The position numbers and the translations under genes are program-made. This document shows positions 1 to 6,563 of a stretch of DNA of 6,563 bases, piece after piece; position 1 is the stretch's first letter; every line of letters starts with the position of its first letter. Below the pieces are notes generated by a model. That model had not been told where the DNA came from. It worked only from the letters and a program-made list of their open reading frames with translations, and ran no database searches. The stretch comes from a virus (taxonomy: Duplodnaviria > Heunggongvirae > Uroviricota > Caudoviricetes): the IMG/VR virus record IMGVR_UViG_2534681697_000019; one strand, written 5' to 3'.

Positions 1-228
1 GGGAAGTTTGTTGCTTATGATTATGCAGCATGGCTAAACCCCGGATTTAAATATGCAGCCTATAAAGTCCTGGATGACTACTTCACCGGAGAACTTCAGC
101 ATCGCAACAGATTAAGTGCGCAGCTCAATATGAAGTGTCATGAGTTTGATCAGAAAAAAGATATGGCGAGCTTCTGTGGACAAGGGCTGGCGGCATGGCG
201 CTATACGAAGCCAGTGTTGGTCTCTTAG
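1..228 (+). CDS. 3' portion of a phage gene whose 5' end lies outside the window; possibly KilA-N/antirepressor-like
   Basis: Frame 1 is open from the window edge to TAG at 226-228 (GKFVAYDYAAWLNPGFKYAAYKVLDDYF...). The AAWLNPGF-type motif resembles the conserved A-WLSPEF region I recall from KilA-N domains. Family assignment is from memory only. Confidence 0.35.
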   Translation, partial: GKFVAYDYAAWLNPGFKYAAYKVLDDYFTGELQHRNRLSAQLNMKCHEFDQKKDMASFCGQGLAAWRYTKPVLVS

Positions 229-278
229 ATTCACACCCTGGCTAACCAGCTGCAGATAACGATCCCCGGGCTTCCGGG

Positions 279-536
279 ATGAGTGATCGTGTCATTGAAT
301 GCGCCTCCAGAGCGGGGCGCGACTTCTCAGAGTTCATGAAAGGCGAGAAGGGCATGATGGAAGCATTGGCCTCGGTGGATGAGTTTGGCGAGCAGCTGCG
401 CCTCAACGGCTGTGTCAATCATCACTTTGTTAGCTACATGATGCGGAACTCGATCATGCAGGCATTCATGGACATGGCAAAAGCCGAGAGGAAAGAAGAG
501 CGCCGGCGTAAGCGAGCGGAAGCAAAAGCGAAGTAG
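279..536 (+). CDS. hypothetical small phage protein (85 aa) with a strongly basic Lys/Arg-rich C-terminal tail
   Basis: ATG-initiated ORF with coding-like codon usage, lying between two same-strand phage genes. No family recognised. The preceding RBS is weak. Confidence 0.4.
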   Translation: MSDRVIECASRAGRDFSEFMKGEKGMMEALASVDEFGEQLRLNGCVNHHFVSYMMRNSIMQAFMDMAKAERKEERRRKRAEAKAK

Positions 537-637
537 CCATTACAAAGCCCATCTACGGGTGGGCTTGATAATGGCTTATACCCTACACGGGATAACTTAA
601 CTGATATCCCTTTTAACGGATAAACGGAGCACAAATA

Positions 638-1111
638 ATGGCAAAGCTCACCGACAAACAAGAGCTGTTTGCCCGTGAGTACCTGAAAGATCTGAACGGC
701 ACACAGGCAGCTATCAGGGCGGGCTACAGCGAGAAGACCGCCAATGAGCAGGCATCTCGATTATTAGCAAATGTTAATGTTCAAAAATTCGTTGCTGAAC
801 TTAAATCCGCCCGCGTTGAGCAGACGGGTATAGATGCCGCCTATGTTCTTCGTAGATTGGTTGAAATCGACCAGATGGATGTGCTCGACATTCTCCTGCA
901 AAACGGTGAGCTAAAGCCCATTAAAGACTGGCCTAAGGTATGGCGCACAACGCTATCAGGAATGGATGTCGTGGAGATGGTATCCGCAGATAGCGCCGCA
1001 CTTCTGAAGAAAATCAAATGGCCTGATAAGGTTAAAAACCTTGAGTTGCTTGGGCGTCATGTTTCTGTTCAGGCGTTTAAAGACAACGTCAAAAATGAAG
1101 TGACTGGCTGA
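638..1111 (+). CDS. phage terminase small subunit (Terminase_2/P27-like), native 3' end replaced by the IS
   Basis: GGAG about 7 nt upstream of ATG 638. The N-terminus MAKLTDKQELFAREYLKDLNGTQAAIRAGYSEKTA is the characteristic HTH start of Terminase_2-family small subunits. The stop TGA at 1109-1111 is the first three bases of the IS left inverted repeat, so the true C-terminus is missing. Confidence 0.75.
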   Translation: MAKLTDKQELFAREYLKDLNGTQAAIRAGYSEKTANEQASRLLANVNVQKFVAELKSARVEQTGIDAAYVLRRLVEIDQMDVLDILLQNGELKPIKDWPKVWRTTLSGMDVVEMVSADSAALLKKIKWPDKVKNLELLGRHVSVQAFKDNVKNEVTG

Positions 1112-1172
1112 GGTAGCCTGAGTTTAACGGACACTCCTTCCTGAAATAGAATGGCATCAGAAGGAGCTAATA

Positions 1173-1475
1173 ATGAGCAGAAAAACCCAACGTTACTCTA
1201 AAGAGTTCAAAGCCGAAGCTGTCAGAACGGTTCTTGAAAATCAACTTTCGATCAGTGAAGGCGCTTCCCGATTATCCCTTCCTGAAGGCACTTTAGGACA
1301 ATGGGTTACCGCCGCCAGAAAAGGGCTCGGTACTCCTGGTTCCCGCACGGTGGCTGAACTGGAATCTGAAATTCTGCAACTGCGTAAGGCGTTAAATGAA
1401 GCTCGCCTTGAGCGAGATATATTAAAAAAAGCAACAGCGTATTTTGCACAGGAGTCGCTGAAAAATACGCGTTAA
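1173..1475 (+). CDS. IS3-family transposase OrfA (HTH DNA-binding / leucine-zipper part), IS600-like
   Basis: 100-aa ORF with a GGAG RBS (AGAAGGAGCTAATA-ATG). Sequence is typical IS3-family OrfA with an HTH and a heptad Leu repeat (LESEILQLRKALNEARLERDIL) ending near the slippery site. Confidence 0.9.
   Translation: MSRKTQRYSKEFKAEAVRTVLENQLSISEGASRLSLPEGTLGQWVTAARKGLGTPGSRTVAELESEILQLRKALNEARLERDILKKATAYFAQESLKNTR
1424..1470 (+). other. programmed -1 ribosomal frameshift signal of the IS: A7 slippery run plus downstream stem-loop
   Basis: A_AAA_AAA at 1424-1430, with AAA AAA in the orfA zero frame, followed by G. Six nt downstream, a 9-bp stem GCGTATTTT (1437-1445) pairs with AAAATACGC (1462-1470) around a 16-nt loop. 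Confidence 0.6.
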
Positions 1476-1510
1476 TCGAACAATGGCGACAACAATTTCC
1501 CATTGAAGCG

Positions 1511-2329
1511 ATGTGTCAGGTATTTGGTGTATCCAGGAGCGGTTATTACAACTGGGTACAGCATGAACCCTCAGACAGAAAACAAAGTGATGAGCGGCTA
1601 AAACTGGAGATTAAGGTGGCACATATCCGCACTCGCGAAACATATGGAACCCGGCGGCTCCAGACGGAGCTGGCAGAGAATGGCATCATCGTTGGTCGTG
1701 ACCGACTGGCACGTCTTCGTAAGGAGCTAAGGCTACGCTGTAAGCAGAAACGCAAGTTCAGAGCGACTACGAACCCGAACCACAATCTGCCAGTTGCGCC
1801 AAATCTGCTGAACCAGACGTTCGCTCCTACAGCACCAAATCAGGTCTGGGTGGCGGACCTGACGTATGTTGCCACACAGGAGGGATGGTTGTACCTCGCT
1901 GGCATCAAAGATGTTTATACGTGCGAAATTGTCGGCTACGCCATGGGAGAGCGCATGACAAAAGAGCTGACAGGTAAAGCCCTGTTTATGGCGCTCAGGA
2001 GCCAGCGCCCACCTGCCGGGCTAATCCACCACTCTGATCGAGGTTCACAGTACTGCGCATACGATTACCGGGTCATACAGGAGCAGTTTGGTCTGAAAAC
2101 ATCAATGTCGCGTAAAGGTAACTGTTACGACAACGCTCCGATGGAAAGCTTCTGGGGAACGCTGAAAAATGAGAGCCTGAGCCACTATCGTTTTAATAAC
2201 CGGGATGAAGCCATCTCAGTAATACGGGAATACATTGAGATTTTCTACAATCGTCAGCGTCGTCACTCTCGTCTGGGGAATATCTCCCCGGCAGCCTTCA
2301 GGGAAAAATATCATCAGATGGCTGCTTAA
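1511..2329 (+). CDS. IS3-family transposase OrfB (DDE catalytic domain), expressed as an OrfAB fusion by -1 frameshifting
   Basis: 272-aa ORF in the -1 frame relative to orfA. That frame is open from the slippery site at 1427 through 1511 (…KSNSVFCTGVAEKYALIEQWRQQFPIEAMCQVFGVSRSGYY). DDE-type motifs are visible (WVADLTY, HHSDRGSQY, NAPMESFW). Confidence 0.9.
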   Translation: MCQVFGVSRSGYYNWVQHEPSDRKQSDERLKLEIKVAHIRTRETYGTRRLQTELAENGIIVGRDRLARLRKELRLRCKQKRKFRATTNPNHNLPVAPNLLNQTFAPTAPNQVWVADLTYVATQEGWLYLAGIKDVYTCEIVGYAMGERMTKELTGKALFMALRSQRPPAGLIHHSDRGSQYCAYDYRVIQEQFGLKTSMSRKGNCYDNAPMESFWGTLKNESLSHYRFNNRDEAISVIREYIEIFYNRQRRHSRLGNISPAAFREKYHQMAA

Positions 2330-2353
2330 AAAAAGAACAAATGGTAGTGTCCG

Positions 2354-2920
2354 CTATTGCCAGTACACCTCAGCTTCATCAATAATCAGAAGGGGGTTAA
2401 CACGGCCACTGGTTTCTTTACCACCACCCAGTTTTCTGCGAATGGCGCGGGTTACATTCCCCTTATTTCTTCCCGGATTATTAATTTCCAGCGCATATGC
2501 TATTTCAAGGAGGCATTCCGTTACGCTCGAATGTGCCGGAGCAAGAGTCACCATCCAGGCATTAGCTGTCCTGCGACAATATTCCCGGGCAGCAAAGGTT
2601 TTTCCGACACCCGGTACGCCAACAACGACACTGATAATCCCGAGTGAGCGCACTGTTTTAAACAGCTCATGCAAATCACAAAATGTCTGGGTCTTCACAA
2701 CACCAGGGGTACCTGACAAGTTCTGTCCCTTCTGCCAGACCTGATACCATTTCTGTAATTTGTCATGCATACCTTCGACATTACCGTTGTACTCTCCTTT
2801 ACGCAGAGCCGAGAGTGTTGCCGGAGACATTCCGGCTTCATCAGCAATATCTTCCTGAGACTTGTCGCCCTCGTTAATCAAAGCGTTAATAGTGTTGAAA
2901 ACATCATCAATATCAGTCAT
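2354..2920 (-). pseudogene. Mu B-like AAA+ transposition ATPase, truncated by the IS insertion (about 184 native residues plus 4 IS-derived codons)
   Basis: GAGG RBS 7 nt before ATG 2920. Walker A GVPGVGKT is present, and the product aligns with Mu B as I recall it (YNGNVEGMHDKLQKW against YNGDNERVSQMLQRW; ...LLIIDEA against ...LVIIDEAD). The reading frame enters the IS right end within the Walker B motif and stops at 2354-2356. No C-terminal continuation exists on the other side of the IS. Confidence 0.8.
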
Positions 2921-2964
2921 AGTATTTCCTCGGTTATTTCAAATCAGCTTTGTTTCCTTTATTT

Positions 2965-2993
2965 AACAGTCCGTTCCCGCGGACTGTTTTTTT
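2965..2993. terminator. hairpin in the A-B intergenic spacer; intrinsic-terminator-like on the + (antisense) strand
   Basis: 9-bp stem AACAGTCCG (2965-2973) pairs with CGGACTGTT (2980-2988) around a 6-nt loop, followed on the + strand by a T7 run (2987-2993). On the coding (-) strand the hairpin is followed only by the A/U-rich stretch UUAAAUAAAGG. Confidence 0.35.
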
Positions 2994-2995
2994 AT

Positions 2996-5080
2996 TCAGG
3001 CCAGCGGATCATCTTCTTCCTGCATGGCAAAAAGTTTTTGCATCCCCAGCCGGAAATCGCGTTCAAATTCTTCGTCATGCTCTTCTTCATATTCCGGTTG
3101 CTGAACTGCCACCACATTACCAACCGGGCGATAAACATTACTCAGCCAGGGTTCAGCCTGTTTGTGTTCCAGAATCTGAATACCTTCATCTTCAGCATCA
3201 CGAATTTTTTCCTCAGCGCGTTTGCGCATTCCTTTAATACGCTGCTGTTGTTTGTGATATTCAGCACTGACAGCAAAGGCTGCGCGTTTATTGCCGTTCC
3301 ATATCGCCTCACAGATAAAGCTGCCGTCCTTGCGACGTACCGTAATTCGCTCGGCGTCATGAATGTCATAACTGATAAGCACTTTGCGACCGTGTTCGTC
3401 ACGCAACTCCGGCGCGTAGTAAATATTGTTCAGCCACTGAATTTCGCAGCGTCTTACCGGTCGTTCCACCATTGGGCGGAACATGTCGCGCAGCTCAAGA
3501 TCACTCAGCCACTCAATTTCGGTGTCTTCTTCTGCCAGGCGTTTTTTTCTGAACTCTGCCGGGCTGTAATGCCGTCCGTTCGGTTTCATCGGCAGCTCAG
3601 AATGCGGGCGGTTGTTGTACCATTCCACGCCTTCACGAATAGCCTCAATAAGCTCCGCCCACGATGGCAGCTCGCGCATTGCCGCTTTCTGGCGGTCGTT
3701 CAGAGGCTTGTCCTGTTGCAGGGAGTTAAACGCTGAACGCAGATCACGGTTAAGTACACGCAACGATTCCCGGTCAGCACCCTTGCCAAAATAGGTGCGA
3801 TACCTCCTGGCTATACGCATCGGCAGTGTCCGGTTCAGGCGTTCAATAATGCCGCGTCCCTGTGGATTACCGGCAATACCGGTAGGGTGTTTAATCCCCA
3901 GGCGTGGCAGAATACCCACGACCTCTTTGTCCAGCATGTCAGCCGTTTCACCGGAACCGTTATCCGAGTAATACAGGAACGGTTTTCCGTGGTTGCGAAT
4001 GCCGTGCTGTATCGCACCGGCAACGGCGAACACGTTTTCGGCAAGGTCAAGACTCCAGCCAACAACAAACCGTGTTCCACCATCGATCACAAACGTGACT
4101 TCCGGTGAGAATGGACGCCCGTGGATCGGATGCGCACATTTCAGCTTCATACCGTGACCGTCACCAATCCAGACATAATTCACCGGCATAGCTGTCCAGT
4201 CGCGGCGGGTGAATCCTTCAAGCTGACGGTATTCACTGCCGGTAACGCGCCCTTTTTGTTTCACCACTTCCGGCAGTTTTTTCATGGCATACCGGACAAC
4301 ATCATAGGAAGGCATCACCTCCAGCATGTACGGTTCGTCCGCATGGCGACGCTGCCATTCTGCGACAAAATCCTCGTAGGCTTCTGACATGGGTCTGCCG
4401 TTCACCTAGCGATACTGCGCCAGAAATTCAGGCAGCCAGCTGATTTCTTCCGGTTTTATTTCGTCGCGTTTTCCCGGTGCCAGTAACAGCAGCCGTTCGG
4501 CGGCGTTCTGCGACTGGTTGTATTTCAGAACCCACTGGTAAAGTGGATCGCGGCTGATAGTACGATTAGCGCCACGTTTTGCATTGGCGTTAACTGCGGC
4601 CTGTTGCAGGCGCTCCGGCAGCTCACCTTTACGGGCTTTTTCAACAAGAAAGTTAATGGCTTTCAGTCGCCCGAGGTTACCGGCGCTTTCCAGCTTCAGC
4701 ACTTCCACCACCAGCGCAGCCCTTGCTTCAGATACCCGACGCTGGTTTTCGGTCAGCGCATTCAGGCGTTCTTCCATCAGTTGTGGCGAACCGCGATATG
4801 CTTCGATTGCCTGGACAGCATCAGGATTGCGTGTTTTTCTGGTAACAGCTTTCACTTCAGAAACATTGTTCTCTGTAGCCACCAACTGTGCCACATAGCG
4901 TTCACGCAGTGCCTTTTGAATAACAATAGGTAAAGAGTTTATTTCGCACTCAACAACACGTCCCTTAACCCCAGCTTTAAGACGTGTCTGCCATGACTCT
5001 TTTTTAGCTTTCTTATGCAAACCCGCAAGTGAACTAGGTAATCCACAAAATGAAGCTAATTCAGTCATTGGAACCCACAT
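2996..5080 (-). pseudogene. Mu A-like DDE transposase, interrupted by a single in-frame TAG at 4406-4408
   Basis: GGAGG RBS 4 nt before ATG 5080. N-terminus MWVPMTELASFCGLPSSLAGLHKKAKKESWQTRLKAGVKGR matches the Mu A enhancer-binding winged-helix domain as I recall it. DDE-like motifs follow the break (VWIGDGHG, YYSDNGSG, GRGIIERLN), and the C-terminal region resembles Mu A (HDAERITVRRKDGSFICEA). One frame is continuous except for the TAG (…LAQYR-TAG-VNGRPMSEAYEDF…), giving a 224-codon N-terminal segment (4409-5080) and a 469-codon C-terminal segment (2996-4405). Confidence 0.85.
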
Positions 5081-5315
5081 TTTTCCTCCGTGAGCGACGT
5101 TCATATCTGGTTGGCCAAATAACCTCTGGTTGAACTCCAATAGCTTGCGCAATAATCCCTTCTCCCTTTAAATAGGGGACTCGCAAAGTATTACCTAACG
5201 TTCTTGGCCTTAAATTATTTTCTCTCGATAAGCGAGACAAATTAGTACCACGCTTCTCAAGCTCAGCCTTGATATCAGCGGAATCCCAATCCTCACCTAA
5301 AATCACGATTAACAC
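5061..5315 (-). CDS. Ner-like DNA-binding regulator of a Mu-like phage
   Basis: Product aligns with Mu Ner as I recall it (EDWDSADIKAELEKRGTNLSRLSR...LKGEGIIAQAIGVQPEVIWPTRYE against RDWHRADVIAGLKKRKLSLSALSR...PKGEQIIANALETKPEVIWPSRYQ). There is no in-frame ATG; the start is GTG at 5315 or GTG at 5306. The gene's 3' end overlaps the transposase start by about 20 nt. Confidence 0.75.
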   Translation of the reverse strand: MLIVILGEDWDSADIKAELEKRGTNLSRLSRENNLRPRTLGNTLRVPYLKGEGIIAQAIGVQPEVIWPTRYERRSRRKNVGSND

Positions 5316-5446
5316 CCCACGCGCTTTCTATGGCAAACTCTATGACTCATGCGTGTAACTCACGAGAGTTACTCAACTGTGTGTGGTTGGAATATTAGAT
5401 ATTAACTAAGTAAATATCAACTGGTTAATTTCATTGGGAGGTTGAT
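5316..5446. promoter_or_regulatory. divergent early/repressor promoter-operator region of the Mu-like element
   Basis: On the - strand: -35 TTGATA (+ coordinates 5415-5420), 17-nt spacer, -10 TAATAT (5392-5397), directed toward ner-A-B. On the + strand: -35 TTGGAA (5387-5392), 18-nt spacer, -10 TAAATA (5411-5416), directed toward the repressor gene. Downstream of the leftward promoter lie three 13-bp-spaced TNACTCA repeats (5343, 5356, 5369) and an 18-bp palindrome GTAACTC-ACGA-GAGTTAC (5355-5372). Promoter and operator roles are inferred from position and pattern only. Confidence 0.45.
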
Positions 5447-5953
5447 ATGATCCAAGATCAAGAATGGGTGCCTGCTAGTGAACTCCTCGGTGTTGGCGGT
5501 TTACCCACATCCCTTGCAGGACTCCATAAGCGAGCAAGAAATGAGGGGTGGGAAAAACGTTCAGTTACAACACCCGGAGTTAGAGGAAGGGCCTTTGCGT
5601 ACCGATTGCAAGACTTGCCTGAACACGTCGCTGCAATTGTTAGCGGTCAGTTGCAAACAGCAACCAAACCATCAAACAAGGCCTCAAAAGCTAATGAGTT
5701 AATGAAAATAATGGATTCTCTAAGCGAACAAGAAAAAGAGATCGTGATCCATACGCTCAAACGAAAAGGTGTTGAAAAGTTGCTCGAATTTTGCAGCCAA
5801 GAAAACCAAGAGTTGATTAGTTTAACGGGTATTCGAAGATTAGCTGCTTTAAGCCTAAATAACCTGTCAGAACAAAAGGTTAGAGAGATTTTGGCGGGAA
5901 ATGAAGCTGAGGCCGATCTCATCCAACTAACCAACAAGGCAGTTAGCATATAA
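5447..5953 (+). CDS. Mu c-like phage repressor
   Basis: GGGAGG RBS 5 nt upstream of ATG 5447. The N-terminal domain EWVPASELLGVGGLPTSLAGLHKRARNEGWEKR...GVRGR is visibly paralogous to the transposase N-terminus encoded at 5080 (WVPMTELASFCGLPSSLAGLHKKAKKESWQTR...GVKGR), the arrangement known for Mu repressor and Mu A. It is transcribed divergently from ner-A-B, toward the prophage end. Confidence 0.8.
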   Translation: MIQDQEWVPASELLGVGGLPTSLAGLHKRARNEGWEKRSVTTPGVRGRAFAYRLQDLPEHVAAIVSGQLQTATKPSNKASKANELMKIMDSLSEQEKEIVIHTLKRKGVEKLLEFCSQENQELISLTGIRRLAALSLNNLSEQKVREILAGNEAEADLIQLTNKAVSI

Positions 5954-6047
5954 TCAGCTAGCTGTGCTTAACTTACTTGGTCCATTTCTACAACTTCTGA
6001 TAAGCTAGTTTTAAAAGCCTTTAAAAGGTCAAAATAAACAAGACGCT

Positions 6048-6180
6048 TTATCTTGAATGTTTTATTGTTCTGAACAAACTAAACGGCCCTTGCCCATTTT
6101 ATCTTGAATACAACTAGTAGCTAAGTTATTGAATCCAACCAAATCCCGTCTTTTTTAATCTCTTCCCGGTTATCTTGAAT
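6048..6180. repeat. three direct copies of TTATCTTGAAT: candidate transposase-binding sites at the Mu-like left end
   Basis: Exact 11-mers at 6048-6058, 6099-6109 and 6170-6180, with conserved flanks (cTTTATCTTGAATg, tTTTATCTTGAATa, gGTTATCTTGAATa), plus a degenerate copy GTTATTGAAT at 6125-6134. They lie 14-146 bp inside the inferred terminus, comparable to the L1-L3 layout of Mu attL. Confidence 0.55.
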
Positions 6181-6197
6181 AAATTACCTAGTCATAG

Positions 6198-6461
6198 GAT
6201 CTACATTTTCTCGCAAGTCGAATGGATACCTCAAAGCTGGATTTGATTCTGGTCGAAGGGTTTAAGCATGAAGAGATCGCAAAGATTGTGCTGTTTCGCG
6301 ATGGAGCCGGACATCGACCGGAAGAATTAGTGATAGACAGACATGTTATTGCTGTAGCCAGTGATGTGTCACTTAATCTTGATGTCGCGTTACTGGATAT
6401 TAATGATGTTGGGGGGCTGGCTGATTTTGTGGTGGAGTGGATGCAAAATCAGGACGGATAA
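6198..6461 (+). pseudogene. mobB: 3' fragment of molybdopterin-guanine dinucleotide biosynthesis protein B gene, 5' part removed by the prophage insertion
   Basis: Translation DLHFLASRMDTSKLDLILVEGFKHEEIAKIVLFRDGAGHRPEELVIDRHVIAVASDV...DFVVEWMQNQDG matches the C-terminal half of E. coli MobB as I recall it. The P-loop N-terminal half is absent, and homology stops at about 6198 where the Mu-like end begins. Stop codon TAA at 6459-6461. Confidence 0.8.
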
Positions 6462-6525
6462 GCAAGAGTAGGCTGGATCAGACGCAGCCAGCGTCGCATC
6501 CGACCTTTTTCTGCACCAGCGCAAA

Positions 6526-6551
6526 AAGGCCCAGTCTTCCGACTGGGCCTT
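6526..6551 (-). terminator. GC-rich hairpin intrinsic terminator, probably bidirectional
   Basis: 11-bp stem AAGGCCCAGTC (6526-6536) pairs with GACTGGGCCTT (6541-6551) around a 4-nt loop TTCC. On the - strand the stem is followed by TTTGCGC, giving a T5 run with the stem end. On the + strand it lies about 65 nt after the mobB stop and is followed by the less U-rich CTGCTTAATTT. Confidence 0.6.
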
Positions 6552-6563
6552 CTGCTTAATTTG

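What the first reader, a model, noticed from the sequence alone, without database searches (positions are those of the whole stretch)
4403..4411. One in-frame amber codon splits an otherwise intact Mu A-like transposase at the DNA-binding/catalytic domain boundary
The - strand frame is open from ATG 5080 to the stop at 2996 except for a single TAG at 4406-4408 (…LAQYR-TAG-VNGRPMSEAYEDF…). The DDE-like motifs and the C-terminal region downstream look undegraded, so the lesion is recent, a sequencing error, or functionally tolerated. If real, the locus would make only a 224-aa fragment carrying the DNA-binding domains. Such a fragment could in principle bind the element ends or operator without catalysis and act as a transposition inhibitor; this is a hypothesis only. 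The GTG immediately after the TAG has no convincing RBS, so independent expression of the catalytic part is not supported.
Basis: partly seen in the sequence, partly recalled or inferred. Interest (0 to 1): 0.55.

Follow-up and report, generated by a model that had tools for sequence, protein, structure and literature searches.

The report
Amber-killed transposase in dead Mu-like prophage
A single C-to-T change at a cytosine-methylation hotspot turned a glutamine codon into a stop codon in the transposase gene of an already crippled Mu-like prophage of Shigella boydii; this is ordinary gene decay, not a new regulatory device.

Summary
The minus-strand frame from ATG 5080 to the stop at 2996 (694 codons) has one internal stop, TAG at 4408-4406 (codon 225). 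The window is the start of a Shigella boydii ATCC 9905 draft contig. The same TAG occurs in a closed related chromosome (CP026875.1) and in contigs from at least seven other sequencing runs, so it is not a sequencing error. Every intact homolog examined has CAG (Gln) there, or Arg in two distant ones.

The ancestral context CGC-CAG-GTG is a Dcm site (CCAGG). The mutated base is its methylated inner cytosine, the classic 5-methylcytosine deamination amber hotspot.

The stop does not lie at the DNA-binding/catalytic boundary. It aligns with MuA R194, inside end-binding subdomain I-gamma, about 60 residues before the catalytic domain.

The prophage is defective anyway:
- The MuB-like gene is cut at residue 183 of 316 by IS600.
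- The middle of the prophage is missing in the closed genome.
- The host is an IS-ridden, pseudogene-rich Shigella.

The inhibitor idea is not excluded, but nothing supports it. The fragment lacks a complete end-binding module, sits behind an intact repressor gene and is confined to one clone. Verdict: an ordinary prophage pseudogene of low interest.

The parts
4406..4408 (-). Amber codon TAG, codon 225 of the Mu A-like transposase gene. Ancestral codon CAG (Gln).
   Evidence: Translation. Intact homologs L001, L002, L003 and L010-L013 all carry CAG. Gln in 15 and Arg in 2 of 17 homologs.
4405..4409 (-). CTAGG, a former Dcm site CCAGG. The mutated base at 4408 is the methylated inner cytosine.
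   Evidence: Homologs VL40 and RM9088 have CGCCAGGTG. Only 3 of 266 possible nonsense substitutions in the gene lie on Dcm-methylated cytosines. The hotspot mechanism is described in PMC12606429 and PMC2715241.
2996..5080 (-). Mu A-like DDE transposase pseudogene, 694 codons including the amber. DDE residues: D307 (4162-4160), D373 (3964-3962), E413 (3844-3842).
   Evidence: Intact homologs are 693-698 aa.
4406..5080 (-). 5' ORF encoding the 224-aa N-terminal fragment. It holds I-alpha (winged helix, residues 1-60), an I-beta-like helical region and only helix 1 of the I-gamma-like module. Strong native SD (GGAGG).
   Evidence: PDB 1tns at E 1.8e-9, hhalign to MuA, AF2 model of homolog P0010, SD dG -9.5 kcal/mol.
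2996..4390 (-). 3' ORF from ATG 4390 (M230), 464 aa. It holds the rest of I-gamma, the catalytic core and the C-terminal domain. Annotated as EFW56592.1 'Phage transposase [Shigella boydii ATCC 9905]'. AGGUG lies 11 nt upstream of the ATG.
5061..5315 (-). ner-like early regulator gene (84 aa, HTH_35), intact. Its end overlaps the start of A.
   Evidence: Pfam E 9e-27. Identical to the RM9088 protein.
5447..5953 (+). Mu c-type repressor gene (168 aa, HTH_Tnp_Mu_1), intact.
   Evidence: Pfam. Same length as the RM9088 homolog, with 8 substitutions.
6048..6194 (.). Left end of the prophage. Three direct TTATCTTGAAT repeats (6048, 6099, 6170) are likely transposase end-binding sites. The terminus ...CA is at 6193-6194.
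   Evidence: Repeats: 3 found against 0.10 expected. Homology to other Mu-like prophages stops at 6196-6200. The mobB reading frame resumes at about 6195.
2373..2920 (-). MuB-like AAA+ gene truncated after residue 183 of 316, inside the Walker B motif IIDEA|D.
   Evidence: Comparison with the intact B of VL40. Pfam AAA_22.
1109..2372 (+). IS600 (1264 bp, TGAGG...CCTCA) with orfA 1173-1475 and orfB 1511-2329. Its flanks are ggc and gct, so there is no 3-bp target duplication.
6195..6461 (+). 3' part of mobB, the host gene into which the prophage inserted.
   Evidence: Pfam MobB on the 79-aa ORF. Sequence reading.

Best explanation
The TAG is a plain inactivating nonsense mutation, Q225*, CAG>TAG. 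It lies in the transposase gene of a defective Mu-like prophage inserted in mobB of the Shigella boydii ATCC 9905 lineage.

Origin (inferred). The ancestral sequence CGC-CAG-GTG contains the Dcm site CCAGG. Dcm methylates the inner cytosine. Deamination of 5-methylcytosine gives thymine, and if very-short-patch repair misses the T:G mismatch the result is CTAGG, which is exactly what is seen.

Consequence (inferred from MuA biology). Translation from the native start stops after 224 residues. The product has the enhancer/operator-binding I-alpha domain and the I-beta region but only the first helix of I-gamma. It lacks the complete end-binding module, the DDE core and the MuB/ClpX-interacting tail, so it cannot transpose.

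The element is dead independently of this lesion. The B gene is cut by IS600 and the central part of the prophage is missing. The mutation is therefore neutral, or mildly beneficial, decay in a genome known for IS expansion and pseudogene accumulation. It has no dedicated function.
For: Shown:
- There is a single internal stop.
- All close intact homologs have CAG, and the position sits in a conserved motif with Y223, R224, G228 and R229 invariant.
- The identical allele occurs in a closed chromosome and in contigs from at least 7 further runs.
- The mutated base is the inner C of CCAGG. Only 3/266 possible nonsense substitutions (3/62 G:C>A:T transitions) in this gene fall on such cytosines.
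- The hotspot and VSP repair are documented in PMC12606429 and PMC2715241.
- hhalign puts Q225 at MuA R194, probability 96.8%. The AF2 model of a homolog places residue 225 in a loop between helices 216-223 and 231-245. I-gamma spans 174-247 and, with I-beta, forms the end-binding module (PMC3362531).
- B is truncated at 183/316 by IS600 without a target duplication. In CP026875.1 the far side of that IS600 is Mu-like baseplate J/gp48, which implies a large internal deletion.
- Of 1871 homologs, the best 120 listed are almost all full-length, mostly 693-698 aa.
- Shigella genomes carry 229-348 IS copies and at least 199 pseudogenes, including nonsense mutations (PMC7373316).
Against: - The gene has only this one lesion plus one private amino-acid change (A453S). 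Decay of A is therefore minimal, and a role for the fragment cannot be excluded from sequence alone.
- Dcm activity in this strain was not checked, because dcm and vsr lie outside the window.
- A chance hit on a Dcm cytosine has probability 1-5%, not zero.
- A second lineage has a related A gene cut by an IS66-family element at codon 220. This could hint at non-random truncation.
Confidence: 0.8

Rival explanations
1. Selected inactivation (prophage domestication). The nonsense mutation was favoured because it stops the transposase from triggering lethal replicative transposition on derepression. This locks the remnant and its repressor, which may confer immunity, in the chromosome.
For: The c repressor and ner genes are intact, while both transposition genes A and B are knocked out by independent lesions. 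A related E. coli lineage has A cut by an IS66-family element at codon 220.
Against: This cannot be told apart from neutral decay with one clone and one event. Once either A or B is lost, the second loss is neutral. Only about 7 nt differ from an intact allele, too few for any test of selection.
Confidence: 0.12
2. First reader's hypothesis. The 224-aa N-terminal fragment is made and acts as a trans-dominant inhibitor or immunity factor. It would occupy the operator/enhancer (through I-alpha) or the end sites of related Mu-like elements without catalysis.
For: The fragment keeps a strong native SD (dG -9.5 kcal/mol) and an I-alpha winged helix homologous to MuA I-alpha and to Mu repressor. DNA-binding-only transposase derivatives that inhibit transposition exist in other systems, such as IS1 InsA, IS3-family OrfA and P-element KP (from my own knowledge, not checked here).
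Against: - The stop removes three of the four helices of the I-gamma-like module, so the end-binding module is incomplete. I-gamma is intolerant to any insertion in MuA (PMC3362531).
- The gene lies in the early operon, which the adjacent intact repressor is expected to silence.
- The stop is not conserved. Homologs have Gln or Arg and are full-length.
- The allele was found in one clone only.
- An apparent second case in S. sonnei is a contig edge that begins with CAG.
Confidence: 0.05
3. The gene is still functional. Either the UAG is read through by a suppressor tRNA (a supE-type tRNA-Gln would restore the wild-type residue), or reinitiation at ATG 4390 yields a working C-terminal protein.
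For: The ancestral codon is CAG, so a Gln-inserting amber suppressor would give wild-type protein. ATG 4390 has an AGGUG 11 nt upstream (dG -6.7 kcal/mol), and the UAG is only 15 nt away, which is compatible with termination-reinitiation.
Against: Amber suppressors are laboratory alleles and none is known for this strain; this was not testable here. A protein starting at M230 lacks I-alpha, I-beta and helix 1 of I-gamma, so it cannot recognise the element's ends. B is truncated, and the element lacks its middle and possibly its right end, so even full-length A would have nothing to mobilise.
Confidence: 0.03
4. Sequencing or assembly artefact: the true codon is CAG.
For: The window comes from an old draft assembly, and its left third may be a chimeric join through IS600.
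Against: The same TAG, in 100% identical DNA, is present in a closed chromosome of another isolate and in independently assembled contigs from at least seven other runs.
Confidence: 0.01

Closest known systems
Phage Mu transposase MuA (gene A) and its homologs in Mu-like prophages of E. coli, Shigella and Salmonella (e.g. Sp18 of O157:H7 Sakai)
   Same: - The N-terminal winged helix is shared with the repressor.
- The I-beta/I-gamma region is alignable.
- The DDE triad aligns with D269/D336/E392.
- A Mu-transpos_C domain is present.
- The c-ner-A-B gene order is kept, and three end repeats lie near a ...CA terminus.
   Different: Identity to MuA itself is only about 25-30%. The gene is interrupted by an amber codon at the position of MuA R194. 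Its partner B is truncated, so the element cannot be active.
Laboratory Mu A amber mutants (Mu Aam)
   Same: These are nonsense mutations in A that abolish transposition and replication and are conditionally rescued in suppressor hosts (from my own knowledge). Here too the lesion is CAG>TAG, which a Gln-inserting suppressor would fully restore.
   Different: Here the allele arose naturally and is fixed in a wild Shigella clone. It sits in a prophage that is defective for other reasons as well.
Dcm-site 5-methylcytosine deamination amber hotspots (lacI, Coulondre et al. 1978) and their avoidance by Vsr very-short-patch repair
   Same: A C>T change at the second C of CCAGG creates an amber codon from CAG, the same sequence change as the lacI hotspots.
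   Different: This is a single natural event, so a raised rate cannot be shown. The Dcm status of the strain was not verified.
Truncated or DNA-binding-only transposase derivatives that inhibit transposition (Tn5 Inh, IS1 InsA, IS3-family OrfA, P-element KP)
   Different: Those inhibitors are produced by conserved, dedicated expression routes and keep a complete binding or multimerisation module. Here the stop is an unconserved point mutation that breaks the I-gamma module.
IS-driven genome degradation and pseudogene accumulation in Shigella (Hawkey et al. 2020, PMC7373316)
   Same: The host is a Shigella. IS600 truncates the neighbouring gene. Nonsense pseudogenes are a documented part of the process.
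   Different: Nothing differs; this locus is one more example.

Membership tests
MuA-type transposase of transposable (Mu-like) phages | N-terminal winged-helix I-alpha domain homologous to the phage repressor N-terminus | tested here: met
   phmmer to PDB 1tns at E 1.8e-9 and to Mu repressor 1g4d at 9e-6. Pfam PF02316 at E 7e-11. Foldseek of a homolog model to 1tns and 1qpm, probability 1.00.
MuA-type transposase of transposable (Mu-like) phages | RNase-H-fold core with a DDE triad | tested here: met
   The BLASTP alignment to MuA places D307 and D373 opposite D269 and D336. E413 lies in the matching ...ER... motif next to E392. Retroviral integrase core hits were also found.
MuA-type transposase of transposable (Mu-like) phages | Mu transposase C-terminal (beta-barrel) domain | tested here: met
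   Pfam PF09299 at E 2e-18, residues 531-591.
MuA-type transposase of transposable (Mu-like) phages | Bipartite I-beta/I-gamma end-binding module | tested here: inconclusive
   hhalign aligns the whole N-terminal 380 residues to MuA at probability 96.8%. Structural support is weak: Foldseek to 4fcy has probability 0.9 and to 2ezk 0.54, and the model has pTM 0.35.
MuA-type transposase of transposable (Mu-like) phages | Early-operon context (c, ner, A, B) next to an element end with repeated transposase sites | tested here: met
   Homologous intact prophages have the same order.
MuA-type transposase of transposable (Mu-like) phages | Uninterrupted reading frame giving a protein of about 695 aa | tested here: not met
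   TAG at codon 225. It is a pseudogene of the family.
MuA-type transposase of transposable (Mu-like) phages | Transposition with 5-bp target duplication | not testable with these tools
   The right end of the prophage is not in the window or in the fetched loci.
Dcm 5-methylcytosine deamination hotspot mutation | C>T at the second cytosine of CCWGG | tested here: met
   Ancestral CGCCAGGTG against window CGCTAGGTG.
Dcm 5-methylcytosine deamination hotspot mutation | Host has an active Dcm methyltransferase | not testable with these tools
   The dcm/vsr locus lies outside the window, and the rest of the genome could not be fetched.
Transposase-derived transposition inhibitors (Tn5 Inh, InsA, OrfA, KP) | The short form is produced by a conserved, dedicated route shared by family members | tested here: not met
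   The stop is absent from all homologs examined. Homologs are full-length.
Transposase-derived transposition inhibitors (Tn5 Inh, InsA, OrfA, KP) | The short form retains a complete DNA-binding or multimerisation module | tested here: inconclusive
   I-alpha is complete, but the I-gamma-like module is cut after its first helix. I-beta alone may bind weakly.
Transposase-derived transposition inhibitors (Tn5 Inh, InsA, OrfA, KP) | Demonstrated inhibition of transposition | not testable with these tools
   This needs an experiment.
Programmed stop-codon readthrough or natural suppression | Stop codon conserved among homologs, and/or a cognate suppressor tRNA in the host | tested here: not met
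   Conservation is not met.

The most novel reading that the evidence does not exclude
The I-alpha/I-beta fragment of a Mu-like transposase is a recurrently selected, domesticated anti-Mu factor. Independent lesions in different Escherichia/Shigella lineages cut the gene at almost the same spot, just after helix 1 of I-gamma: an amber at codon 225 here and an IS66-family insertion at codon 220 in E. coli. The repressor is kept in both. The resulting protein would bind the enhancer/operator or end half-sites of incoming Mu-like phages and block transpososome assembly.
Probability: 0.04. Interest if true: 0.5.

Novelty: already known. Interest (0 to 1): 0.1.

Why it matters
It matters little for biology. 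It is one more nonsense pseudogene in a degraded prophage of a Shigella genome, and the two halves are already in public annotation.

It does have three small uses:
- It is a clean natural example of the CCAGG>CTAGG 5-methylcytosine amber hotspot.
- It shows the order in which a Mu-like prophage is disarmed: both transposition genes are lost while the repressor and ner are retained.
- It is a reminder that gene callers will report the two halves as separate 'DNA-binding protein' and 'transposase' genes.

Only if the N-terminal fragment proved to be a working anti-Mu factor would it become interesting.

Tried and rejected
- An exact 48-mer spanning the TAG, searched in the species-representative genome collection, found nothing. 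Shigella isolates are evidently not represented there. The exact-protein look-up worked instead.
- phmmer of residues 58-377 against PDB sequences gave no MuA I-beta/I-gamma hit. The profile-profile alignment was needed.
- Foldseek of the AF2 model supported I-alpha well, but I-beta and the transpososome chain only weakly, and gave no I-gamma hit. The domain mapping therefore rests on hhalign plus the helix pattern of the model.
- I suspected that 464-aa 'transposases' of S. sonnei and S. flexneri shared the amber. The S. sonnei one is a contig edge that begins with CAG. The S. flexneri protein could not be looked up.
- A literature search for the accession and strain found nothing about this locus.
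- A search for papers on truncated-transposase inhibitors returned nothing directly usable, so that comparison rests on my own knowledge.
- The sequencing-error, programmed-readthrough and split-gene readings were considered and rejected for the reasons given under the rival explanations.

Full report
**1. The observation.**
On the minus strand the frame from ATG 5080 to the TGA ending at 2996 is 694 codons long. It has one internal stop, TAG at 4408-4406 (codon 225), followed at once by GTG. The flanking peptide is ...LAQYR*VNGRPMSEAYEDF.... A 2.1-kb frame broken once is not a chance ORF. The product matches three things:
- Pfam HTH_Tnp_Mu_1 (residues 7-125) and Mu-transpos_C (531-591);
- the solved MuA I-alpha domain (1tns, E 1.8e-9);
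- retroviral-integrase cores.

BLASTP against MuA aligns D307 and D373 with D269 and D336, and places E413 in the motif next to E392.

**2. Where the window comes from, and whether the TAG is real.**
The window is identical to the first 6563 nt of AERN01000031.1, a contig of the Shigella boydii ATCC 9905 draft genome. The 464-aa downstream product is the deposited protein EFW56592.1, 'Phage transposase [Shigella boydii ATCC 9905]'.

The exact 224-aa upstream product is also encoded in the closed 5.16-Mb chromosome CP026875.1. It is encoded too in contigs assembled independently from SRR1811688 (the same contig in five samples), SRR3793777 and DRR015921. The run contigs are 100% identical to the window across the stop, and CP026875.1 matches at 99.98% with its one gap elsewhere. 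A sequencing error is excluded, and the allele is fixed in a clone.

**3. What homologs carry at this position.**
Three intact E. coli alleles have CAG: VL40 and FDAARGOS_943 (698 aa) and RM9088 (694 aa). So do four further intact loci.
- In an alignment of 17 more distant homologs the residue is Gln in 15 and Arg in 2. It sits in a conserved motif in which Y223, R224, G228 and R229 are invariant.
- A search with the C-terminal part found 1871 relatives. Nearly all of the 120 listed are full-length, mostly 693-698 aa.
- From nt 211 onward the window gene differs from the VL40 allele at only seven positions: four synonymous changes, the C>T nonsense change, one private replacement (A453S) and one polymorphic replacement.

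The lesion is therefore a single, recent CAG>TAG transition in an otherwise undecayed gene.

**4. How it probably arose.**
The ancestral sequence CGC-CAG-GTG contains CCAGG, a Dcm site, and the mutated base is its inner cytosine (CCAGG>CTAGG, window 4409-4405 on the minus strand). The repaired gene has six Dcm sites. Of 266 single-base changes that would create a stop, only three lie on a Dcm-methylated cytosine. Among the 62 G:C>A:T transitions that create a stop, the figure is three of 62.

C>T at the second C of CCAGG is the classical amber hotspot of lacI. It is explained by deamination of 5-methylcytosine to thymine and is normally countered by Vsr very-short-patch repair (PMC12606429, PMC2715241). 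This origin is an inference, because I could not verify that the strain has dcm.

**5. Where the stop falls in the protein.**
The title of the finding places it at the DNA-binding/catalytic boundary. A profile-profile alignment of the N-terminal 400 residues with MuA (probability 96.8%) puts Y223-R224-Q225 opposite MuA Y192-L193-R194.

MuA subdomains, from PMC3362531:
- I-alpha covers residues 1-76.
- I-beta runs to residue 173.
- I-gamma covers 174-247.
- I-beta and I-gamma together form the end-binding module.
- I-gamma tolerates no insertions.

An AlphaFold model of homolog P0010, which has the same numbering, shows helices 216-223, 231-245, 250-254 and 259-267, with residue 225 in the loop after the first. 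Foldseek confirms I-alpha strongly and the rest only weakly.

So the stop lies inside the I-gamma-like module, about 60 residues before the catalytic domain. The 224-aa fragment has I-alpha and the I-beta region but not a complete end-binding module.

**6. The surroundings.**
The locus is the left end of a Mu-like prophage inserted in mobB.
- The terminus ...CA is at 6194 and mobB resumes at about 6195.
- Three TTATCTTGAAT repeats lie 14-146 bp inside the end, against 0.10 expected by chance.
- An intact c-type repressor gene is at 5447-5953.
- An intact ner-like gene is at 5315-5061, followed by A.
- The MuB-like gene (2920 downward) is cut after residue 183 of 316, inside its Walker B motif, by IS600 (1109-2372). 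The IS600 has no 3-bp target duplication.

In CP026875.1 the far side of that IS600 is Mu-like baseplate J/gp48. This implies loss of the whole middle of the prophage. The element is therefore defective irrespective of the amber.

Shigella chromosomes carry 229-348 IS copies and at least 199 pseudogenes. Nonsense mutations are a recognised part of that degradation (PMC7373316).

**7. Could either half be expressed usefully?**
- The native start has a strong SD (GGAGG, dG -9.5 kcal/mol).
- The ATG five codons further on (4390, M230) has AGGUG 11 nt upstream (dG -6.7), formed partly by the UAG itself.

Low-level reinitiation is conceivable. But a protein starting at M230 lacks I-alpha, I-beta and helix 1 of I-gamma, so it could not recognise the ends.

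The upstream fragment would be made only when the early promoter is derepressed, and an intact repressor gene sits next to it. A Gln-inserting amber suppressor would restore the wild-type protein. Such alleles are not expected in wild isolates, and I could not scan the genome for one.

**8. Verdict.**
The best explanation is an ordinary nonsense pseudogene, probably created by 5-methylcytosine deamination, in a prophage remnant of an IS-ridden Shigella (confidence about 0.8).
- The inhibitor hypothesis is not excluded, but no evidence supports it (about 0.05).
- Selected disarming of the prophage is possible but indistinguishable from drift (about 0.12).
- Suppression or reinitiation giving function is unlikely (about 0.03).
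- Sequencing error is refuted.

Novelty is nil in kind, and interest is low.

Noticed in passing
window 1-2372 versus 2373-6563; L004 and L014 (CP026875.1): In the closed relative CP026875.1 the terminase-small-subunit/IS600 junction (window 1108/1109) lies at 4.25 Mb and has a clean ggc/ggc target duplication. The Mu B'/IS600 junction lies at 0.83 Mb. The window's join of the two through IS600 is therefore either an IS600-IS600 recombination in ATCC 9905 or a chimeric draft assembly through a multicopy 1264-bp repeat.
   Followed up: partly
window 4870-5953 (A codons 1-70, ner, c): The A gene is mosaic. Its first ~150 nt, together with ner and c, are of the RM9088 type (6 differences in nt 1-150), against 119 differences from VL40. 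From nt ~210 onward it is almost identical to VL40 (7 differences). The immunity module, including the I-alpha domain of the transposase, seems to be exchanged as a unit, as expected if I-alpha must match the operator/enhancer.
   Followed up: partly
L017 6001-6802 (also L018-L021): In another E. coli lineage (13 contigs) a closely related A gene is cut at codon 220 by an IS66-family element. The result is a 225-aa product ending ...EFLGNRLI. This is an independent truncation five codons from the amber. It was found through a length-biased search, so the coincidence is weak evidence of anything.
   Followed up: partly
window 6195-6461: The Mu-like prophage is inserted inside mobB at about codon 85, leaving a 3' fragment with a spurious 79-aa ORF. 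Downstream the contig runs into the rrnA operon (5S rRNA follows at 6564 onward in L015).
   Followed up: partly
L004 13870-16625 (CP026875.1): In the closed genome the IS600 next to B' itself carries an IS66-family insertion, with window 1212-1219 duplicated on both sides. This is an IS nested within an IS, and it is absent from the ATCC 9905 contig.
   Followed up: no
window 638-1111: The terminase small-subunit gene (Terminase_2) of a different, lambdoid-type prophage is truncated by IS600. Its stop codon is the TGA of the IS600 terminus.
   Followed up: partly
L009 1-20 and several short Shigella/E. coli contigs (P0045, P0047, P0054, P0072): Many draft-assembly contigs of related prophages begin or end within codons 219-229 of A. 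The S. sonnei contig starts exactly at codon 225, with CAG. This probably marks a repeat or mosaic boundary that breaks short-read assemblies, and it creates many 'partial' proteins of about 220 aa in databases that mimic truncations.
   Followed up: partly
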